NCBI GenBank assembly: GCA_951406725.2
Contig: OX597835.1
Location: forward strand, 46,128,001 to 46,192,000
Length of the DNA: 64,000 nt
From: Octopus vulgaris
Taxonomy: Eukaryota
Reading direction: 5' to 3'
In this document: in pieces, positions 8,410 to 50,010 of the stretch
Layout of the letters: each line of letters opens with the position of its first letter
Numbering within the stretch: the stretch's first letter is position 1
Notes under the pieces: generated by a model
What the model saw: only the letters and a program-made list of their open reading frames with translations
Databases searched by the model: none
What the model was told of the DNA's origin: nothing
Position numbers and translations under genes: made by a program

Positions 8410-8885
8410 CAACCCCACCAAGCTTGCTTGGTGAGGAGGGTGTTTATTGGACACCCTGCGGGATGAAAAACAAAACCCGTCAAAGGGCGGAGGAACTCTT
8501 GAGAGTCAATGGCCATCCAATAAATGTCTTAAGGCTGTATCATGCGCGGAGACATAGAAATAATTGGACAGAATACACGATCGCGCGGTTAAACCATTGG
8601 GAGTGAAGGACTCCTAGCTTTTGTTAGGGCATCCTTCTAGGAGAAGGTAACTCAGGTAACTGGGATAACTCCGACATAAAACCTGCGGCTCAGTGGTTTC
8701 CGATGATGTTGACTTGTTCTTCTTTTCGGATTATGGCTGCTGTTGCTTAGTGAGTGGGATTGACTCAGTGCACTGCCTTTCCTCACTCGAAAAAAAAATC
8801 TTCTTGCACAGGCATTGCACGATAACAACATTGATTAAGCTTCGTGCAATGGCCATACTCGATAACGAGGGGGCAGCCACCACCA
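8332..8885 (+). mobile_element. Non-autonomous bipartite RTE derivative (5' UTR plus 3' tail)
   Basis: RTE 5'UTR-type motif GGGCATCCTTCTAGGAGAAGGTAACTC; 3' end TTAAGCTTCGTGCAATGGCCATACTCGATAACGAGGG shared with the RTE 3' end near 27731-27775; (ATGT)n tail. Confidence 0.8.
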
Positions 8886-12234: not shown

Positions 12235-12560
12235 GCCCCTGTCCTTGTACTATCCACCATTCATGTTTTTTATTTCTGTTTTTTATTTCTATTTTTGTTT
12301 CTTGTATTTATATTCGTGTGGCATCCTGTCTTTGTTTTGTATACATTCGTCCTCTTTCTAAGAAATCTAATGCCTATGACTTAGTTCTTGGGGCTGGCCG
12401 GTTCGGAGTAATATCGAGATTAAACAGCCGAAATTACTAAGATGATCCGGTTCCCGACTGAAGATTAGAGGCTTCGAGTGACCCGTCTGTTTTCTTGTGT
12501 CGTCTCTTTGTGTGTTTTTGCGTTCTTGTCCCACTTTGTAATTTATATTTTATATTTAAT
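12235..12560 (+). mobile_element. TA-adjacent repeat carrying the permuted hammerhead motif (diverged copy)
   Basis: Aligns with ~32455-32758; boundaries approximate. Confidence 0.65.
12392..12464 (+). ncRNA. Candidate non-circularly permuted hammerhead ribozyme with kink-turn (copy 1)
   Basis: GGCTG g CCGGTTC gGA GTAA-TA-TCGAGA ttaaa CAGCC GAAA TTAC taa GA t GATCCGG t TCCCGA CTGAAGA; predicted cleavage after 12413. Confidence 0.7.
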
Positions 12561-26263: not shown

Positions 26264-27190
26264 AATATCTATTTAGCCCTCCATAATCTTTCACATGGTC
26301 GTGTAGATGTAGGCGACTAAATCGGTTACCACCTCACGTTAGCTTCGTAAGAAAAATCATTTTCGTTGCGTAGTTTCTTGTAGGTAAAAGAAAAGCAAAC
26401 TTGTCAACAGCGAATGAACTTAGTGAAAAATCACTTAACAGCTGTGAGTGAGAGACCGCAAGACGTTGCCTAGACACCTTATGTAGGAGAACAACATATC
26501 GAAATAACAGCTGTCAGATTGTGAAGCCAGACGTCTTGCTCCTGGTTCTTCTGAACAACAATGCTTTTAGGTGAGAATCTTAGCGGTGTTGTGCAAGGTG
26601 TTATCGATTTAAATTTCAGTATCGGCGTTGGTGACAGCCGTTGCCTTAAACATCTCGGATAAGATAATTTGTCAGTGATTGTAATATTAGTTTATGAGTT
26701 GACGGATACTTTGTGTATATATTTGTACGTGTGTAACCATTTATGTATGCAGCTGTTTTACATTTACAGAAAAAGTTTTGGGCAGTTACTCGTAACGATA
26801 TAAGTAGCCCATCTGCAAGAGACAAAGTAGGACAACTAATGCATCGATGATGTCTGTTGAGGAGGAAACATGCATCACCAACTGTTTAATTGTCTCCAGA
26901 TAAACACGCTAGTTTTGTCAAATAGTATGTGAATTTTGGAGGAATTTTTGGTTCTTGGGATTATCTGTTCCTCCGTTTGGATTTAATCCTTAAATTCATC
27001 ATTCAGTTATTTTACACACTCTAGAAGTGTAATTAATTTCAATGAATATATATATATATGTGTGTGTGTGTATGTATGTATGTATGTATGTATGTATGTA
27101 TGTATGTATGTATGCATGCATGCATGTATGTATGTATGTATGTATGTATGCATACATGTATGTATGTATGTATGTATGTATGTACTATGT

Positions 27191-27778
27191 ATGAGGTATA
27201 AGGACTTGCCGAAGGTCTCCTTATGAGATGATTGCATCTCTCCTGACACATGGGAAGGCATAGCTATTGATCGTAGCAGGTGGAGAAGGATTGTGCATGA
27301 GGGGACAGCCACGTTTGAGAAATCTCGAGTTGCACATGAGAAAGTAAGGAGGGATGTCAGGAAGGGCATCGCTGTTACACTTCCAGAAGGGAAGGGTCTT
27401 CCTTTGATTCTGACATGCAATGTCTGTGGAAGACCCTGCCTCAGTAAAGCTGGACTCTAGAGTCATCTTCGAAGTCATAAAACGAGACAGATGAGTGACA
27501 ACCTGGCCACTGGTGGTGGTGTAACACACCATACTAATCATATCTGTCGGGCATGTGGAAGAGAGTGTAATTCGGCAGGAGGACTTAAACGACATGCAAA
27601 GGTACATGAAGCCCAGTTACAACTACAGCCGGCTATTACCAGTAAATGTCTTAGTTGCCAATTTTGTGCAAGACATTGTAGATCTTTAGCTGGGCTAAAA
27701 GGTCACATTCGATCACAGCACCAGTAACAGTTAAGCTTCGTGCAATGGCCATACTCGATAACGAGGGTGCAGCCATAA
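27191..27778 (+). mobile_element. 5'-truncated RTE LINE 3' end with three C2H2 fingers
   Basis: RYKD...TWEGIAIDRSRWRRIV..G..FE; CNVC..HLRSH, CRAC..HAKVH, CQFC..HIRSQH; two in-frame stops. Confidence 0.85.
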
Positions 27779-29595: not shown

Positions 29596-30379
29596 GTGTG
29601 ATACCGAGCTTTACCGGTGAATAAAATGCTCATTATATGATCATGTAAGAGCAAGTGGTGGTAGATTTCACAGTCTTACGGAGCCTTAACTTAATTCCTC
29701 AGGCTGGTTCTGCACAGGACACTCTGTAACACGTTCGGACCTATGAATTTTAGGTACCGTCCATCGGGTTTTCGATGAAACTACTGCGGTTTCAAGCCAT
29801 GGAATCTCACACAATATCTCTTGATTATGGATCGGTTGTGGATTGTGGATCAGCGTGTGCTTCAAAATATATTTGGCTGATTTGTCTGTTAGATCGAACA
29901 GACACGCTGTCATCGGTTTCTTTGACGTTGATTGCTTAATACAAAGAATCGCATTATGCTGTATTGCTTTTAACTTTATATCGCTAATGTTCTTTCATCA
30001 GTTTGTCTTTTAACTTAATTCTTAAATCAATACTTTGTTCAAGAGTAGAAATCAAACAAAATATTCCTAAAATAGTTGAATCTTAACGAATTTTGACTAG
30101 ACGAGATCTCGGGAAACACAAGTGACACACACACATTTGCATACAATTTCATTCAAAATATATTTGAAGAAAATAAAGTATTCTTTTTTAAAATTTTAAG
30201 ACAAAGTCGGCAATTTTGTGGAGAGGAGAAGTTGATTACATCGACTGCAGCAATTTCGGGGAGAGGGCAAGTGGATAAGATCTATTCCGGTGCTCAGCTG
30301 GCACTTACTTTGTCAATCCCGAAAGGATGGGGGGGGGGACAGACTCAACCTCACCGGAAATAGAATTCAGAACGTAAAT

Positions 30380-30748
30380 ACCTGTAACGAATACGTTAAT
30401 TCCAGAAATGTAATTATTTTCGTTATGTCCACATTCTAAGAAATACATCTTGACTGAATTTAAGAACAGGCCACCGAACACATTGCTTATATGCCCTGTG
30501 CTATTCCCTTCGTCTGCTTCCTTCGGAGCGTTCTTTGGTTTAAATGTCATCTGCTTTAAAGCAACTGTCAAGCCGTCTTGTCGTATTGAAATATGGCGCA
30601 GTAAATGTGTCGCCCACGAAATTCTGTGTAGCTGTAATTAAGTGAGACTTGTGTTTTTTTTAATTATTATAACACTTTCTGTAGTCTCTTAGCTGATCGA
30701 GTGCTATTCTAATTGTTACAGTCTCACCACATGCATGCATACATATTC

Positions 30749-30796
<48 letters not shown>

Positions 30797-30842
30797 CTAT
30801 AATGTATACATATAGATATATATATATAAACACAGATATATG

Positions 30843-30882
<40 letters not shown>

Positions 30883-31321
30883 CATAATGTATATACATAT
30901 ACAGATACATATATATACACATACATATATATCTATACATATATAAAAAGAATGCAAAAATGGGAGAAGAACGCGACAAGTGACAACAAAACATCCAGAC
31001 AGTTGAATGATTCAAAAAAGGACATGAAAAAACAAGGACGGGTCATACGAAGTTTTCTTTCGTCAGTCGAGTTCCAAATTATCTTTGCAGTTTCGGCAGG
31101 TTATACTCGAGATTGCTCCAATCTTGCCAGCCCCAAAGAAAATCTCAGCTAAGAGCCTTAGATTCCTTGGAAGAAAGCAGCGAATGTTTACCAAATCCAG
31201 GACGAAAAAAAAACACGGAGAAATGGTACATAAATACAAATATAAAGAAGAGGTGTCTTTCAACTAAGGACGAATTACATTAAGCTGGCTTTTGTGGCAG
31301 GGACATAAGAGATGACAAGCT
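30380..31321 (-). repeat. Inverted duplication of 32382-33320
   Basis: Mirror ORFs in the track; differences seen are a 3-bp indel and microsatellite-region variation. Confidence 0.95.
31060..31132 (-). ncRNA. Permuted hammerhead candidate (duplicate of copy 2)
   Basis: Exact reverse complement of 32571-32643. Confidence 0.65.
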
Positions 31322-31752
31322 ATCTTGATGGCGGTGGCCTCATGGAGCTGACCATGGCAGCGATTATTCTTATATCTATAAGAATGCCATATTAATATGG
31401 CGATAACAATTATATTCGGTCATTCAAAAATGAAAAAAAGGAATTATGCATTGTGCTGTATGCTTCTTAAAACAATGCTATTTTCAAGCTGCAACACTTC
31501 CTCTTAATACTTTTCAAAGGCAAGGCCAATCAGGAGCGAAACAACAATAATTACCCTTCCTAAAAGTTACGAAGACAAAGTTGATTTTTAAAATCATTTC
31601 TGTTATAGAGAGTGGCCCTAACCCCAACGGATAGACCTGAAATCTTGAGTAATGCGTGGAAAATCAGTTTTAAGCGCAGGACCTTATTGCTGTATCTTAT
31701 CGTATTGTATCTAGCGAGGGAACCCTATTCCGTTGAGCACTTTGTGTATATG
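31318..31752 (+). repeat. Direct duplication of 38774-39207
   Basis: 435 bp with 2 substitutions and 1 indel seen. Confidence 0.95.
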
Positions 31753-31929
31753 GGGGGGACAGATGGGGGGGGGACAGACTCAACCTCGCCGGAAATAGAA
31801 TTCAGAACGTAAATACAAAGGAAACGCCGGTTAACATTTTGGCCAGCGCTAAGGATTCTAGCAACTCGCCGCCATGTAATGCAACATGATAAAATGCCGA
31901 ATATATATGTGTGTGTATGTGTCTCTCTT

Positions 31930-31998
<69 letters not shown>

Positions 31999-32087
31999 TA
32001 GTTTATGAGTTGACTGCTACTTTGTGTATATATTTGTACGTGTGTAACCATTTCTGTATTCAGCTACCCTCTCTCTCTCTCTCTCTC

Positions 32088-32199: not shown

Positions 32200-32758
32200 T
32201 GGCCTTCCCTTCATTTTCTCTCCTTTCTTCCTCTCACTTCACTCTCCCTTTTCTCTCCCTAATTCTTCTATCCCTCTGGCTCTACTTTTCTCCTCTCCTA
32301 CCACGTGACTGGTATTCTGCCATGCCTGACCTTTCTTTCTTGGTTCGACTACCATCCGTGCAACATCTATATTCCTTCCCAAGCTTGTCATCTCTTATGT
32401 CCCTGCCACAAAAGCCAGCTTAATGTAATTCGTCCTTAGTTGAAAGACACCTCTTCTTTATATTTGTATTTATGTACCATTTCTCCGTGTTTTTTTTTCG
32501 TCCTGGATTTGGTAAACATTCGCTGCTTTCTTCCAAGGAATCTAAGGCTCTTAGCTGAGATTTTCTTTGGGGCTGGCAAGATTGGAGCAATCTCGAGTAT
32601 AACCTGCCGAAACTGCAAAGATAATTTGGAACTCGACTGACGAAAGAAAACTTCGTATGACCCGTCCTTGTTTTTTCATGTCCTTTTTTGAATCATTCAA
32701 CTGTCTGGATGTTTTGTTGTCACTTGTCGCGTTCTTCTCCCATTTTTGCATTCTTTTT
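32198..32758 (+). mobile_element. ~560-bp TA-embedded element carrying the permuted hammerhead motif
   Basis: Flanked by (TA)n on both sides; pyrimidine-rich 5' part; homologous to 12235-12560. Confidence 0.65.
32571..32643 (+). ncRNA. Candidate non-circularly permuted hammerhead ribozyme with kink-turn (copy 2)
   Basis: GGCTG g CAAGATT gGA GCAA-TC-TCGAGT ataac CTGCC GAAA CTGC aaa GA t AATTTGG a ACTCGA CTGACGA; flanks TTTTCTT/AAGAAAA pair; predicted cleavage after 32592. Confidence 0.7.
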
Positions 32759-32839
32759 ATATATGTATAGATATATATGTATGTGTATATATATGTATCT
32801 GTATATGTATATACATTATGTATATATATATATATTCAT

Positions 32840-32882
32840 ATATCTGTGTTTATATATATATATCTATATGTATACATTATAG

Positions 32883-32951
<69 letters not shown>

Positions 32952-34007
32952 ATATGAATATGTATGCATGCATGTGGTGAGACTGTAACAATTAGAATAG
33001 CACTCGATCAGCTAAGAGACTACAGAAAGTGTTATAATAATTAAAAAAACACAAGTCTCACTTAATTACAGCTACACAGAATTTCGTGGGCGACACATTT
33101 ACTGCGCCATATTTCAATACAAGACGGCTTGACAGTTGCTTTAAAGCAGATGACATTTAAACCAAAGAACGCTCCGAAGGAAGCAGACGAAGGGAATAGC
33201 ACAGGGCATATAAGCAATGTGTTCGGTGGCCTGTTCTTAAATTCAGTCAAGATGTATTTCTTAGAATGTGGACATAACGAAAATAATTACATTTCTGGAA
33301 TTAACGTATTCGTTACAGGTCCTTAAATTCTTTAAGAGATACAGTTTCTCGAAAAAACTCATAGAATATCGTTTTAACACATTAATATCATAAACATTAT
33401 GAATGATTTTATTGTGTCTGGGGCATTAATTTAACACACTCGCTTGATTACCACTCATTTACTTATTTATTAAAATCTCGTTGCGACTTGCAACCTTTTC
33501 AATTGTCGTCGACTATTGAAGAGAATGATCCTCCCCAGACGCAATAAAATATGCTTCAACACACGAATTCGCATAAAGAATCTTGCAAACCAAAATACAA
33601 AAACGAAATTATTAATCATTCTAGACGAAAATTACCGAAAATGTTTCTTAGCTTGAAAGTTTTCGTTTGAGAAATACATCTTGACTGAATTTAAGAACAG
33701 TCCACCGGACACATTGCTGATATGCCCGGTGCTATTCCCTTCTTCTGCTTCCTTCGGAGCGTTCTTTGGTTTAAATGTCATCTGCTTTAAAGTAACTGTC
33801 AAGACGTCTTGTCGTATTGAAATATGGCGCAGTAAATGTTTCGCCCACGAAATTCTGGGTAGCTGTAATTAAGTGAGACTTGTGGGTTTTTTTTTTATTA
33901 TTATAACACTTTCTGTAGTCTCTTAGCTGATCGAGTGCTATTCTAATTGTTACAGCCTCACCACATGCATGCATACATGCATACATGCATACATATTCAT
34001 ATATATA

Positions 34008-34062
<55 letters not shown>

Positions 34063-34103
34063 TATATCTATCATGTATACATATACATATATATAAACAC
34101 AGA
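32840..34103. repeat. Older ~420-bp inverted repeat (32840-33261 / 33670-34103) with 408-bp spacer
   Basis: About a dozen substitutions in the ~300-bp unique part. Confidence 0.9.
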
Positions 34104-34107
34104 TATG

Positions 34108-34150
<43 letters not shown>

Positions 34151-35407
34151 AATTGTCTTCAGATTTTGTTAGAATGACTTCCTGTGCCATAGTCAAACGT
34201 GTTTTTAATATTCTATCATCTGTGTGTAGGTGTGTATTTCCTGTTTAAGTACCAGGTATTCAATAATGCCGTCTATACCATGCTGTCAATATTATTCTGT
34301 ACAATATTCCAGCTGTGTACTATTTAATTGCCTACTAAATTTTTTTTTTTTTATGACACGGAAGAAATGGTCATTTCTACAAGAAACTTCCTTGAATTTT
34401 TAATCAAACTGTGTCTGATATCTGTCTTGCTTCTATTTTTTTCTATTTTTCCTCTTCCTTCCCTCTTTCTCTCTCTTTCTCTCTCTCTCTCTTTCACTCA
34501 CTCTCTCACGCTCTCTTTGTGTGTATGTCTGTCTCTCACTCCCTTCATTTGCAGTAATACGGATCACTAACCATGAAAGGTAAAACCATAAACTTTTAAT
34601 ATAGTCGATGTCACCCGGTTGATTGCCTCTCGACGGTTCTTTTTCTCAGAAGATATTCACCTGTCGGTGACCTGTGTGTGTTCGTGTGCGTGTGTCAGTG
34701 TTCTTGCATATATATATGTATGATAGCTTTCTTAACTGTGTTTCCCACGCTTGTGGTTCGAAATATTTAATATAAGCTCTAAATTTTGCCAATGTCCACC
34801 TAAGGATCGCTTCATTACATATGTACTCATCCGCGTTGAGAGCATGCAACTTTAATCGAAATCACATTTGACACGATTATAGAACATTAGCTTACCTTTC
34901 ATAAACATTCACTTACAATAATCGCCAACTCTGGAAACACAGAACCATACAACACCTTATAAACTAAAATCAATTAACCAATAATGTAGCACGGTTTTTT
35001 TTTACAACTTCGTAACACTGCTAACAGACATATCACATTTGTACATTATTAACATCCAAAATATTAATTCTGATAAGCAACATATTTTCCTCGCTTATCA
35101 GTATTATCTCATTTACTATACACAAATCTATATTGTTCTTTCCTCCAAATTAACGCTATCGTTTTATAAATTTTATCATTATATGGAACCCCATTACTTT
35201 ATCTCTTACTATTATGGTTAGCAATTATCATCGTACATTATATCATTCATCTCACTGTATTGATCTCATATCATTTCCACATTTGCTTCTTAATTATCTC
35301 TCATATGTTTTTCCTGCTTTTTCGCTTATATTATTTATGTTGATGAACAGATATGGTGTAAAATATATTGTTTTCTGATCGTAACATAAAATAAATGAAA
35401 TACATAT

Positions 35408-35439
<32 letters not shown>

Positions 35440-35949
35440 TATAATATGTTATTGATTCTCACGGTTAATTTTCCTTGTTCGTTAACATCTATGCAAAAAT
35501 TAATAATTTGCTGCTATTAGATGTACAGAAATTTTGACATTAATTCAGTAAATTAGCCGTCCTCTTGTACATATGCATTAGAAACTAAAAGTATTTGCAA
35601 ATTTTAATTCCGCTTAGCATTTTTTTTTGTGAGCGGTAAAGATTCTACCTGCTCATCGCCTTAGTATCGTGTATAATATTGACATAAAATGAAGCTTTGT
35701 ATGGAGAAAAAGTAAAACTCCTCATGGGGCTCTAATTCACATCATGTATGAATATGATAAATACACATGCAAAGGTGTATTTTCCAAGATAAATGGAAAA
35801 GTTTTTGGTGGTATTAAAGACATGAATTTGGGGGTAAAGTGTGACTTCTAGTAATGTCTTAATGCCGAAGAAGGAATTTTCGCGACCCTAGAAAGACCGA
35901 TGTCTTCTATTGAAGTTTGGCATTTGTGTATATGGCTAGCAACCTCAAA

Positions 35950-36460
35950 CACAACCCTTGCAAAAGGGGCTCTAAATCAGTTCTGAAAACCAAGAGAAGG
36001 CGACACGCTTAGACCTTTCCGTGATGGGCTGTGAGGGCCAGCATGACGGAATCAATAGTAACGAACAGGGAAGACATAGTGCCACAGAGACAGCCCAAAA
36101 CATCTTTGACTGAAGCGGTATCGGAAGTAAAATATCATTGCAGAGAGATATCTGTGAGAACATGAAAGAACACTAAACACACTAAACTAAGTTTGACTGT
36201 GGATAAGAGCCACAAGTGCAGCAATCACTGTTTGCTCCCGGTGCATAATATTCAACTTCCTCTGCTGTCCGCCATAGAAGAATTCAAGTATGTTAAGTAT
36301 AGAGTGGTAATTATGTATAAGGACTCCTAGGATGAGTGTGTCAGGCATGCCGTTATCACCACAGGGTTTGGAAGAAAGCGGGTAGGAAGCACTACAGTCG
36401 CACAGGAGACATTCGCAATTCTCCTCCTGGTGTATTGCGTATATCTCCATATTCACTGTT
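35950..36460 (-). pseudogene. Possible highly decayed LINE (CR1/Jockey-like) ORF2 fragment
   Basis: Weak motifs only: SKMFW...PITERSK, KLNIMHRE. Confidence 0.25.
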
Positions 36461-36748
36461 GTTCTTGTTGGTAGTGTCTAAGATGATGCTATTATATCTG
36501 GTTTTGGGATTGTAAAGGACTTTACAGGACATATACCATTTTTCGAAGACATCATTTTTGAATGAGGATCAGGTCTATTTTTGTCTTCACTGATAGTGTA
36601 GCGTATTTGTTTATTTCATTTAAAATAATGAGGGTTTTCATAAGCAACTTTGCTACTGCCCTGTTATATCCAAAATTCGATGGTTTTGCACTGGTCTGCT
36701 ATCAGTTACTCTTTGAGTTAGATAATGGATTCAGCCATATATATATAT

Positions 36749-36946
36749 AGGGAGAGTTTTCGGGAAAAAAACAAAAGACGGAGGCAGGTGGTGAACAAAA
36801 CAAACAGATGTATTAGTATAACGCTCAGGAATAGAAAAAAGTCTTTTACGTTTCGAGCCTACGCACTTCTAGAGAAAGGGACACAGAAAAAATGAGAGAA
36901 ACAAGGAGGGAAAATGTGTGTAGTGGCTAGCGATCTATCATGGCGA
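36749..36946 (-). mobile_element. Third copy of the ~190-bp hammerhead-like element
   Basis: Reverse complement of 9966-10150; TA flanks. Confidence 0.75.
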
Positions 36947-37224
36947 TATCATATATATATATATGAATTTGTGTTGCAAAATTTCTGATGTGAAACCATG
37001 TGTTGAAACAGATATTGTTGTATTTCGGGATGGGCATTTCCTTTTTCTTACCAGATAAACACAGGCCGTATATATTCATTTTTCACTCGCTTACTACTGT
37101 TCATATTGTAACTCGTGTCCATTGTCCGGAGAATAAACTAAGCGGAGCAGGAGCATACACGAGGACAGAAAGTTCTGAAGAGGTCACAGAAGTGTGATGA
37201 AATATTTCCGGATAACAAACGTCC

Positions 37225-37440
37225 CTTCCGAGCTCATAAATCCGGTTTCCTAGATTCCGGTTGAACATTTCTCCACTACTTCACTTAGACAGGATGCCGA
37301 TTCGTCGCAGGATTGTTCATTTTGCTGACAGAGTTGACTAGATGAAGGGGAAATAACGTGTTAAGTACAGGAGCACGACTCATCATCCGATCCAGGAATC
37401 GAAACCGCAATCCCCTAGCTACTAGGTTACACACCTCCAC
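37225..37440 (-). mobile_element. Degenerate tRNA-SINE
   Basis: GGAATCGAAACC is a B-box reverse complement. Confidence 0.35.
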
Positions 37441-37987
37441 ACGCATATGTATGTATACATATGTGTGTGTGTGTAAATTAATATATATTTACACGGATGT
37501 GTATGCGTTGAAAAAGCGATGCCAGTTGAAAAGGGTACAGTTATTTCTAAGATAATTATTGCAGTTGAGTATTGGGAAGATACGAGTCTACGACGATCAT
37601 TACCAATTAGTGTTTCATAGAATTATTTAAATAGATACACATGGGGAATTCAGCCACAGCCCTGTCTAAATTTTACCGTTTCTTACTCACAGAATGGCAA
37701 TCCTTACTTAATAATAATCACAGCGCTTCGTTACTTCGCCATATTTTCTGAACGCAGTAACCTTTTAGAAGTTGAGTTTCACAATGAAATATCTAAAGCA
37801 ACTGGAGTTAGAAAAGATTTCAAATTTACTCCATTAAAATGCATGGTTAAAGATAGCTAATAGTTTTAAAGTTCATCATTTGTTAGATACGCGTAAGCAC
37901 ATTTTATATACATGTGTGTGTGTTTGTGTGTGTATAAGTATGTATGTGTGTATATAAGTATGTATGTATGTGTTTCTGCATGCATGT

Positions 37988-38032
<45 letters not shown>

Positions 38033-38640
38033 CATATATAGTTTATTCATCCATACATATACACAAATATACATAAGCGTATGTGTGCGTGTGTATGTGT
38101 GTCTACGTCTGTGTGTGTATATGTGTGTCTGTGTCTATGTGCTTGCGTGCGTATGCGTAACATTTATCTCTTTTTCGAGATAAGAGTGGCATTTGAACGT
38201 TTATTGAGATAAGAATCACACAAATGAATGAGAAATGAAGGCAGATGCAGCTCTTTGTTAGAAATGTTTTTTTGTTATCTTCTTTATACATGTGAGCAGT
38301 CGACACAGATCGAAGTTACGTAACTTTGCGAGACGAAGTGCTATAAAATGCAAGTGAATATTACACTGTCGTCTTTGGAGGTTTAACTCTGCTCACCGAT
38401 ATTTTCAAAATATTCGCTAAAAATGAGACGATACTTGTTTGAGTAACCTTGTCGCAATCATGTAGCAACCGTTTTACTGTTTTATGACAATAATAAGCAG
38501 AAAGATTCAAAAGGTCGTTTACACGGCCAGGGAACTCGTAGAGGATTACCACCATGACTCAGAAAAACTATATTCAGTCATAGAAATATTAAAATTACTA
38601 AGTCTCTATAAAAGTGATTATGGCAGCGTTTACTGGAAAT

Positions 38641-38868
38641 TAATTGTTATCGCCATATTAATATGGCATTCTTATAGATATAAGAATAATCGCTGCCATG
38701 GTCAGCTCCATGAGGCCACCGCCATCAAGATAGCTGTTGATACAGATATAATGGATACAGATCGTGTATCAATAGCTATCTTGATGGCGGTGGCCTCATG
38801 GAGCTGACCATGGCAGCGATTATTCTTATATCTATAAGAATGCCATATTAATATGGCGATAACAATTA
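38641..38868. repeat. Palindrome with perfect 95-bp arms containing nested palindromes
   Basis: 38641-38735 is the reverse complement of 38774-38868; pairing continues ~11 bp into the spacer. Confidence 0.95.
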
Positions 38869-39319
38869 TATTCAGTCATTCAAAAATGAAAAAAGGAATT
38901 ATGCATTGTGCTGTATGCTTCTTAAAACAATGCTATTTTCAAGCTGCAACACTTCCTCTTAATACTTTTCAAAGGCAAGGCCAATCAGGAGCGAAACAAC
39001 AATAATTACCCTTCCTAAAAGTTACGAAGACAAAGTTGATTTTTAAAATCATTTCTGTTATAGAGAGTGGCCCTAACCCCAACGGATAGACCTGGAATCT
39101 TGAGTAATGCGTGGAAAATCAGTTTTAAGCGCAGGACCTTATTGCTGTATCTTATCGTATTGTATCTAGCGAGGGAACCCTATTCCGTTGAGCACTTTGT
39201 GTATATGTGGTTCCCCCTGTCAGTTTATATCTGGTGAAAGTTTATTATATATCAGGCAATAAAGTTACCATCCTTGTAACCATGTCTGTAGAATCATGCG
39301 TAGGATACTATATAATGCT

Positions 39320-39530
39320 TTTTAAAATTTTGGCAGAAGGAGAGGAATTTTGAAGAAGGGGTTTAGTCGATTACAGTGATTCCAGTGCTCAACTGGTACT
39401 TATTTTATCGACATCGAAAGGATAAAAGGTAAAGTCGACCTCGCAGGAATTTAAACTCAGAACATACAGGCGGAGGAAATGCCGCTGAGCATTTCGCCCG
39501 ACGCGCTAACGGTTCTGACAGTTGGCAATC
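39320..39530 (-). mobile_element. SINE family B
   Basis: ACTGGTACTTATTTTATCGAC..GAAAGGATAAAAGGTAAAGTCGACCTCG. Confidence 0.8.
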
Positions 39531-48669: not shown

Positions 48670-50010
48670 ATCCCAGTCTAGTTTCAAGACATCGGCATTC
48701 GCACATTGGAGGTCTTTGAGCCCCTTCAAGTGTATTGTAAAATTTTGGGCTCTTGAATCCCAAGATATTGCAGGATCTGATCCTGTATTTTAGCGGCAAG
48801 AGAAGGATTTTAGGCACAATATAATGGCACCCTGTTCTATCATTTGCATAATTTTCAACGTCAAAGGTTTGGATACGTCCTTCCAGGATCTTCAAGATGT
48901 ATAATGCATATGTATATTGCAGCTTTTTCCACCTTCATCCCAAGAAGAAAAGTGGATTTGGGCACATCGAAGTAGGCCATTTTGAACGGCAGTGTCAAAA
49001 GACAATGCCCTGTGGGACACCACTAATCATTTACGTTTCTCTGCAGGCAGCACCATTAAATACTAGTCTTACCCTGTAGCCAATTTGGAGCGTTGAGGCT
49101 ACCTTCTTCAAATACCTTCACTCAACCGCTTTAAGCACCGTCACTAATGTCACGTTGTCTCGTGATCAAAGGTGGGAGCAATAGTCAAGACGGCTTAGGA
49201 CAAATAGTTTCTTGCTCTCCCGTTTTGTAGGTCTAAGTATCCACCCGGCCATTTCATTGCCATCTCATTAGTGTGTACATGGAATGATGCATCACTTCTC
49301 ATGTCAAAACCCAGGTCACGCACTGTTTATATTCTAGAACTGCGTTTCCTCAAGGTCCAATGAATTTTATCTGCATGGCTTTTAATTGTGTCAACTGATA
49401 GCGTAGTGCTTGGAGCTTTCCAACATTAAACTGAATATAATTGTCGTCAGCCCACTTGTATATTACACCTAACTCTTGTTGCAGGTGCGTGCCATCTTTA
49501 GGGTTTTGCATTACCGTTTGTTTCATCTGCATAGCTTGTGAGAGTGGCTTTCTGTGTGGATTTGGGCATATCGAAGTGGGCCATTTTGAACGGCAGTGGC
49601 AAAAGACAATGCCCTGTGGGACACCACTAATCATTTACGTTTCTTTGCAGGCAGCACCATTAAATACTAGTCTACGATTTCTGTCTTTCAGACAGTCGTG
49701 TAGCCTTCCTCGTAGATTTCCAACTAAGCCGAGATCATGCAGTTTATGAGATATCGACTTAATAATCGACTTTATGGAAGACCTTCATAAATTTGGGATA
49801 TAACAGGTCCGTATTTGAGTGGTCAAGTAGCTGCTTCAACAACCAGTCATAGTATTGGAAAAGCCGTGTCAGGAATCCTTCTTCCTGGACGGAAAGCATG
49901 CTGGGTGTCAGTTAGAAATTCATTCTCTTCGAGGAACATGATTAGTTTCCTTCGGAATATCCGTTCCAGGATTCCGCTGATAGGATTATAGAATTTGGCA
50001 TCCGCTCTTC
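48670..50010 (-). pseudogene. Decayed CR1-group LINE ORF2
   Basis: QHAFRPGR, SGVPQG, LQQELGVIYKWADDNYIQFNVGK, RDLG, KILEG; frameshifts. Confidence 0.8.

What the first reader, a model, noticed from the sequence alone, without database searches (positions are those of the whole stretch)
30326..31816. Multi-template, microhomology-joined insertion (FoSTeS/MMBIR-like) readable at base resolution
An old SINE is split. After ...GTAAATAC the sequence jumps (AC) to the reverse strand of 33320-32382. It then jumps (AGCT) to 38774-39207, then (ATG) back to the G-run with a short stutter (ATGGGGGGGACAGA), and re-copies 55 bp (30326-30381 = 31762-31816). Each junction has 2-4 bp microhomology. The few differences between copies argue for a real, recent event rather than mis-assembly. 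It also duplicated the permuted ribozyme.
Basis: partly seen in the sequence, partly recalled or inferred. Interest (0 to 1): 0.7.

Follow-up and report, generated by a model that had tools for sequence, protein, structure and literature searches.

The report
Two-template copy-paste repair scar
A 1.4-kb patch made of copies of two nearby stretches of the same chromosome sits inside an old repeat, between two copies of a 55-base piece, and other sequenced animals show the site without it; it is most likely an ordinary scar of error-prone DNA copying, with no sign of a function.

Summary
30380-31321 is an inverted copy of 33320-32382, 31318-31752 copies 38774-39207, a 14-nt stutter follows, and 30326-30381 is re-copied at 31762-31816. 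Microhomologies are 2, 4, 3 and 2 nt (P about 0.003 by chance). New evidence: contigs of runs X1, X2 and X3 join 30381 directly to 31817, so the empty allele exists. Of 6 non-microsatellite differences between copies, 4 lie on the old copies and 2 on the insert, so 'very recent' is overstated. No listed contig spans a new junction. X1 breaks exactly where junction 1 predicts but not at junctions 2 and 3, so an assembly artefact is unlikely (about 10%) but not excluded. The second switch lands in a 228-nt palindrome of a young repeat family. The duplicated hammerhead-like motif has two stem mismatches and is a passenger. The architecture is a local 'cycle of templated insertions' (PMC7025897) or complex MMB-TI (PMC8421209). 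This scan has noted the same kind of scar in other genomes. Verdict: probably real, clean, ordinary.

The parts
30212..30381 (-). Body/3' part of an old tRNA-SINE-like repeat (host, left half; left boundary approximate)
   Evidence: Family copies about 75-79% identical; B-box-like GTTCAAATTCC in 5 of 8 fetched copies, decayed here; another copy's contig starts at 30212
30326..30381 (+). Left copy of the re-copied host segment (56 nt, G10, A at 30353)
   Evidence: other samples read G at this site
30380..31321 (+). Inserted segment 1: inverted copy of 32382-33320, including a TA microsatellite and part of a hammerhead-motif retroelement; J1 overlap AC, J2 overlap AGCT
31060..31134 (-). Duplicated hammerhead-like motif (S-G-C block order), passenger, identical to the donor copy
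31318..31752 (+). Inserted segment 2: direct copy of 38774-39207 (one palindrome arm plus unique flank); J3 overlap ATG
31750..31763 (+). Stutter: first short copy of the host G-run (ATG7ACAGA) before re-priming; overlap GA
31762..31816 (+). Right copy of the re-copied host segment (55 nt, G9, G at 31788)
31817..31873 (-). 5' head of the host SINE-like repeat (right half); follows 30381 directly in the empty allele
   Evidence: (X1 loose end equals 31817-31846)
32382..33320 (+). Donor 1 (copied in reverse); its retroelement part continues past 32382 as in the family
32569..32643 (+). Donor copy of the hammerhead-like motif: ATC 32590-92, GAAA 32609-12, CTGACGA 32637-43; two stem mismatches
38774..39207 (+). 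Donor 2
38641..38868 (.). 228-nt near-perfect palindrome (95-nt identical arms, 38-nt spacer), end of a young multi-copy foldback/MITE-like element; J2 lands at the inner end of an arm
33670..34150 (+). Older, separate inverted duplicate of part of donor 1 (about 94% identical; right end approximate); serves as outgroup
   Evidence: its left junction is seen in run X3

Best explanation
A 1,435-nt addition made of two copies of nearby DNA, a short stutter and a re-copied 55-nt host piece interrupts an old repeat, and it most likely arose in one germline episode of replicative repair with serial template switching (FoSTeS/MMBIR type). Shown: the segments, their sources, the overlaps and the empty allele. 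Inferred, read left to right: a nascent 3' end ending at 30381 left its template and annealed through AC to the opposite strand 2.9 kb ahead. It copied about 940 nt backwards, switched through AGCT into the 38.6-38.9 kb palindrome and copied 434 nt forwards (it may have entered either identical arm and turned round in the palindrome). It then returned through ATG to the G-run 55 nt behind the departure point, slipped once, and resumed. The same product can be written right to left. The allele appears to be a neutral polymorphism; no function is indicated.
For: Junction overlaps 2, 4, 3, 2 nt, P = 0.0026. Both donors lie within 9 kb and are left intact, i.e. copy not cut. Empty allele in X1 (190-nt contig, 30323-30381 then 31817 onward), X2 (921 nt) and X3 (916 nt), with record coordinates continuous across the two lay-downs; X5 has a 922-nt contig of the same shape, laid on the right side only. 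Differences fall on both sides: insert-specific G31418 and A7 at 31433; old-copy-specific A30353, loss of GTC near 33120, T7, and G39095 (the 33670 paralogue also has GTC). In X1 one contig starts exactly at 30380, the fork that J1 predicts, and another ends at 30352, next to the A/G site; X2 and X3 run through both places. The architecture matches 'cycles' that re-replicate a host segment (PMC7025897, passages) and complex germline MMB-TIs with an inverted then two forward copies (PMC8421209, section 10 part 1).
Against: No listed contig in the 5 runs laid spans J1, J2 or J3 (both piece tables were cut). X1 contigs run unbroken through the forks predicted at 31321 and 31752 and through the point where the right copy should merge, which a heterozygous carrier should not show unless graph cleaning removed those paths. 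The depth left over in X1 at 30343-30379 is only 2.0, so no junction contig of heterozygous depth was among the laid records (about 80% of that run was read). Overlaps of 2-4 nt fit end joining as well as MMBIR (PMC5120786 and PMC7025897 passages).
Confidence: 0.68

Rival explanations
1. Two-ended break with staggered ends 55 nt apart. The left end invaded and copied donor 1, the right end copied the stutter and donor 2, and the two new strands were joined at AGCT by microhomology (aborted SDSA closed by polymerase-theta-type joining), possibly on the homologous chromosome.
For: Gives the same product. The stutter at the G-run resembles iterative priming at a break end (recalled knowledge). 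At 4 of 4 sites where the old copies differ from other samples, the new DNA carries the allele seen in the other samples, as a homologue template would give.
Against: Tracts of 940 and 434 nt are long for polymerase theta alone (recalled knowledge). A 4-versus-2 split of differences is also expected from simple ageing (binomial P about 0.34, mental arithmetic, no call).
Confidence: 0.18
2. Assembly or library chimera: reads from the second haplotype stitched into the contig.
For: No listed contig spans a new junction. X1 shows no fork at J2 or J3. The insert carries the alleles of other samples at 3 donor sites, as a second haplotype might. Three of the differences are homopolymer lengths, a typical long-read error.
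Against: Four junctions with overlaps above chance, a stutter and a return 55 nt upstream are not a usual chimera shape (inference). X1 has a contig start at exactly 30380 that X2 and X3 lack. G31418 is seen in neither X1 nor X3. The neighbouring older inverted duplicate is confirmed in X3.
Confidence: 0.1
3. RNA-templated insertion by target-primed reverse transcription with twin priming, from a local plus-strand transcript; the 55-nt repeat would be a target-site duplication.
For: The layout duplication - inverted part - direct part - duplication is that of twin priming (recalled knowledge). Donor 1 ends just before a GT (33319-20) and donor 2 begins with AG (38774-75), as if 33319-38775 were an intron.
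Against: No poly-A or repeat tail; the copy ends 50 nt before the nearest AATAAA. Both would-be splice sites are poor (CAG|GTCCTT; no pyrimidine tract). With the intron removed the second primer would have no complementarity. Insertion within 9 kb of its source is expected of DNA templating in cis, not of retroposition.
Confidence: 0.04

Closest known systems
Cycle of templated insertions / local n-jump (PCAWG, Li et al. 2020, PMC7025897; passages read)
   Same: A string of copied segments returns to the host chromosome and re-replicates a host segment; templates are local; mix of inverted and non-inverted junctions; 2-4 nt overlaps.
   Different: Germline polymorphism in an invertebrate rather than a tumour event; very small (1.4 kb, 55-nt host duplication); copy number not measured from reads.
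Complex germline MMB-TI (Osia et al. 2021, PMC8421209; passages, section 10 part 1 of 2)
   Same: Several local templates, first reverse then forward, microhomology at junctions, present as germline variants (33 and 26 complex events in two people).
   Different: Tracts here are hundreds of bases, and one landing site is a mobile-element palindrome.
FoSTeS/MMBIR complex insertions with duplication at the insertion site (Gu et al. 2016, PMC5120786; passages)
   Same: Iterative switches, microhomology, short templated insert at a junction, duplication at the inserting site.
   Different: Those are large, often interchromosomal and pathogenic; this is small, local and apparently neutral.
Type-SGC hammerhead ribozyme (Eckert et al. 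2023, PMC10085705; abstract, section 13) - for the passenger motif only
   Same: Block order cleavage site, GAAA, CUGAnGA; core CTGACGA and GAAA intact.
   Different: This copy has a C-A mismatch next to the cleavage triplet and a T where 17 of 18 relatives have A; cleavage untested.

Membership tests
Cycle of templated insertions / local n-jump (PMC7025897) | Inserted string returns to the host and re-replicates a host segment | tested here: met
   30326-30381 re-copied at 31762-31816; single copy in the empty allele
Cycle of templated insertions / local n-jump (PMC7025897) | Templates are copied, not moved (donors remain) | tested here: met
   Both donors intact with their family or flank continuity; donor contigs in X1, X2, X3, X5
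Cycle of templated insertions / local n-jump (PMC7025897) | All junctions phased on one molecule, with copy gain, shown from reads | tested here: inconclusive
   Only contigs available; none listed spans a junction; X1 fork at J1 but not J2/J3; depth ratios do not separate carriers from non-carriers
Complex MMB-TI (PMC8421209) | Two or more template switches with microhomology at resolvable junctions | tested here: met
   4 of 4 junctions have 2-4 nt overlap, P = 0.0026
FoSTeS/MMBIR as a mechanism | Single replicative event from a stalled or broken fork, with its genetic requirements | not testable with these tools
   A fixed scar cannot show the enzymes or exclude two-ended repair
Twin-primed retrotransposition (features recalled) | Poly-A or element-type 3' tail next to the target-site duplication | tested here: not met
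   Segment 2 ends at 39207 in unique sequence, no tail
Twin-primed retrotransposition (features recalled) | Inverted and direct parts adjacent on the source RNA | tested here: not met
   They are 5.4 kb apart on DNA; adjacent only if a weak GT-AG intron is assumed
Mobile element as a unit | Dispersed copies of the whole insert | tested here: not met
   Donor-2 flank has 2 matches in G000; the J2 join occurs in 1 of 52 listed matches, the insert itself (lower-bound search)
Type-SGC hammerhead (passenger motif) | Blocks in S-G-C order with CUGAnGA and GAAA | tested here: met
   ATC 32590-92, GAAA 32609-12, CTGACGA 32637-43
Type-SGC hammerhead (passenger motif) | Paired stem III next to the cleavage site | tested here: not met
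   GAAAC faces ATC (C-A). By eye: 13 of 18 relatives have G there; 3 of the 5 with A have the compensating T
Type-SGC hammerhead (passenger motif) | Self-cleavage | not testable with these tools
   No Rfam match at gathering score in the window; needs an in vitro assay
tRNA-derived SINE (host; label recalled) | High-copy short repeat with pol III A- and B-box-like motifs | tested here: met
   40 of 40 scored candidates match; B-box motif in 5 of 8 and A-box motif in 6 of 8 fetched copies, neither intact in this copy
tRNA-derived SINE (host; label recalled) | Identity with a named SINE family | not tested
   No repeat library on hand; one search gave only a listing

The most novel reading that the evidence does not exclude
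The insert is a germline record of RNA-templated repair in cis: both ends of a staggered break were reverse-transcribed from a local transcript from which 33319-38775 (GT...AG) had been spliced, which would explain why the two copied pieces stop exactly at a GT and start at an AG 5.4 kb apart. A tamer reading (about 0.15 likely, interest about 0.35) is that the young palindromic element family acts as a U-turn and landing pad that seeds local duplications across this genome.
Probability: 0.03. Interest if true: 0.6.

Novelty: new member of a known kind. Interest (0 to 1): 0.13.

Why it matters
Little beyond being a tidy teaching example. It suggests that the template-switch scars described in human germline and tumours also segregate in this animal (an octopus according to earlier notes of this scan, and my recollection of the repeat), and it gives a presence/absence marker. 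It lies in repeat-rich DNA where I saw no obvious gene (read by eye). It would matter more if palindromic elements proved to be enriched at such junctions genome-wide, or if the RNA-template reading held.

Tried and rejected
1) J2 as a natural continuity of a repeat family, or as an ancestral adjacency broken by a later inversion. Prompted by one high-depth X2 contig that aligned 5 nt past 31321. Rejected: the retroelement family continues into donor 1's flank, the palindrome family continues into its own inner sequence, and X2, X3 and X5 show loose ends before 31318 that resemble donor 2's own flank 38744-38773. 2) A ribozyme in donor 2 (twister, HDV-like or pistol-like by eye): no ribozyme family among 26 Rfam matches at E up to 10 in 38500-39400; the top hits are generic long-hairpin miRNA models far below gathering score. 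3) Ribozyme cleavage as the cause: the copy runs through the triplet at 32590-92 and ends 208 nt beyond it. 4) Depth as a carrier test: donor-2/right-flank depth ratio is 1.4-1.5 in all four runs, carriers or not, so it says nothing. 5) Expression: no RNA holder listed; this is no evidence either way. 6) X8 gave 1 unrelated record and was uninformative. 7) Gene context: 140 ORFs of 90 aa or more, read by eye as microsatellite- or repeat-derived; not scanned against Pfam. 8) A G-quadruplex at the G10 run was considered by eye and not pursued; neighbouring G-tracts are about 60 nt away. 9) Literature: (octopus, structural variant, templated insertion, microhomology; at least 3 of 4 terms) none of the 15 listed of 159 papers contains 'octopus'; this is not proof of absence. 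The TA microsatellite 30750-30945 was not covered by either lay-down, so its length differences are not polarised. No supplements were read.

Full report
Observation. The window is AT-rich, microsatellite-dense animal DNA on contig C22 of a 2.8-Gb assembly. After masking tandem repeats, self-comparison shows 30369-30748 and 30946-31321 matching 33331-32382 in reverse (98% and 100%), 31318-31755 matching 38774-39210 (99%), and 30330-30381 matching 31765-31816. An exact-match walk and pairwise alignments fix the path: host to 30381, reverse copy of 33320-32382, forward copy of 38774-39207, a stutter ATG7ACAGA, then host again from 30326-27. The overlaps are AC, AGCT, ATG and GA. Their sum of 11 has P = 0.0026 for four random junctions at local composition.

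Which copy is new. The host repeat family runs unbroken across 31816/31817, and 5 of 8 fetched copies carry a B-box-like motif and 6 of 8 an A-box-like motif on the minus strand, so 'old SINE' is reasonable; I did not match it to a named family. The retroelement family in donor 1 continues past 32382. Donor 2's unique flank has 2 matches in the genome, both here. So 30382-31816 is the addition, and the insert is not a dispersed mobile unit.

Other samples. Twenty-four runs were listed, all held as assembled contigs; I laid 5 of them (X1, X2, X3, X5 on 30950-31900; X1, X2, X3, X8 on 29640-30745). X2's 921-nt and X3's 916-nt contigs cover the left flank to 30381 and continue at 31817 with continuous record coordinates. 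X1's 190-nt contig covers 30323-30381 and its loose end equals 31817-31846. X5 has a 922-nt contig of the same shape but was laid on the right side only. X8 was uninformative. The empty allele is therefore shown in 3 runs and likely in a fourth, across two species labels.

Is the filled allele real? No listed contig spans J1, J2 or J3, but both piece tables were cut and about 80% of X1 was read. The assembled haplotype predicts graph forks at 30380, 31321 and 31752 among others. X1 has an 89-nt contig that starts exactly at 30380 and a 775-nt contig that stops at 30352, beside the A30353/G difference; X2 and X3 run through both places. One path carrying A30353 into J1 would explain both breaks. 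Against this, X1 contigs run through 31321 and 31752 unbroken, the empty-allele contig is not broken where the right copy should merge, and leftover depth at 30343-30379 is only 2.0. These contigs are simplified graphs (PMC12424806, passages), which could drop a short link beside a very deep repeat (J2) but less easily J3. I put artefact at about 10%.

Age and polarity. Outside the microsatellite the copies differ at 6 sites, counting substitutions and indels and leaving G10/G9 aside. Other samples side with the new DNA at 4: G at 30353/31788, GTC at 30580-82 (also in the older paralogue), T8 at about 30654-61, and A at 31640. They side with the donor at 2: A at 31418 and A6 at 31433, read in X1 and X3 only. 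X1's empty allele has G10, like the left copy. For scale, the left flank differs from X3 at 6 of 742 and from X2 at 12 of 741 positions. Changes on both sides fit a polymorphism of moderate age. They also fit copying from the homologue, or, less likely, a haplotype chimera.

Landing site. J2 falls at the inner end of one arm of a 228-nt palindrome (95-nt identical arms; predicted DNA hairpin -128.6 kcal/mol), which is the end of a young multi-copy element. Short-spacer inverted repeats cover 2,698 of 464,000 bases around the window (0.58%, 11 cases), so one of four donor ends landing in one has a chance of roughly 2%; this was noticed after the fact. Because the arms are identical, the strand could have entered the left arm still moving backwards and turned round inside the palindrome. 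That is inference.

The ribozyme. Rfam finds nothing at gathering score. The block order matches the definition in PMC10085705 (section 13) and both core motifs are intact. But the pair next to the cleavage triplet is C-A, where 13 of 18 relatives have G, and a second stem position has T where 17 of 18 have A (by eye; the 18 are the non-window loci among the 20 fetched of 42 matches). It is a probably impaired passenger, and no junction coincides with its cut site.

How ordinary. In 464 kb around and including the window I count, by eye, 10 other low-copy pairs of 80 nt or more, 90% or more identical and within 25 kb. They include an older inverted duplicate of the same donor and a 1.65-kb near-identical inverted pair about 57 kb right of the window; only the first was seen in another sample. 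In humans, complex multi-template germline insertions numbered 33 and 26 in two individuals (PMC8421209, section 10 part 1), and strings that return and re-replicate host DNA are a named class, 1,467 cycles in PCAWG (PMC7025897, passages). The scan's own notes list 77 findings with these key words in at least 70 genomes (unchecked AI notes, not independent support).

Mechanism and verdict. Best: one replicative repair episode with serial microhomology-guided template switches (0.68). Rivals: two-ended repair with joining at AGCT (0.18), chimera (0.10), RNA-templated twin priming (0.04). The last rests on a GT and an AG at the donor ends and is weakened by the lack of a tail, poor splice contexts and strict locality. 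The finding works like, and on every sequence feature I could test is, a local cycle of templated insertions; read-level phasing was inconclusive and the enzymology is untestable here. New member of a known kind, interest 0.13.

Noticed in passing
window 38580-38868; L005-L022: Young foldback/MITE-like family: 47 of 52 listed matches (two are this window's own arms) cover the arm at 99-100%; internal parts vary by deletion and inversion, and ends often abut TA runs. Superfamily and target-site duplication not determined.
   Followed up: partly
window 33670-34150: Older inverted duplicate (about 94%) of 32800-33261, 409 nt from its source; its left junction is in run X3 and its alleles in X1 and X3. 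The same donor stretch with its TA microsatellite was thus copied twice.
   Followed up: partly
L068:7359-9003 and L069:1865-3512 (about 57 kb right of the window): A second young local duplication: 1.65-kb inverted pair, about 99-100% identical, 2.9-kb spacer, next to a direct duplicate of about 500-650 nt. Not checked in reads.
   Followed up: partly
window 48952-49069 and 49556-49673: 118-nt low-copy direct duplicate, 96.6% identical, 487 nt apart.
   Followed up: no
window 12392-12464 and L025-L042: In the hammerhead-motif family the pair next to the cleavage triplet appears to covary: G-C in most, A-T in the 12.4-kb copy and in 3 of 18 relatives (by eye). The strand that pairs with the bases before GAAA seems to lie upstream of the cleavage block, not after CUGAnGA.
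   Followed up: no
runs X2 and X5: X5 carries the species label of X1 and X3 but shares the listed donor-2 differences of X2 (14 other letters each), which has another label.
   Followed up: no
window 8835-8879 / 27731-27775 and 26688-26754 / 31999-32065: Short near-identical direct pairs (45 nt, 98%; 67 nt, 94%) several kb apart; probably repeat fragments.
   Followed up: no
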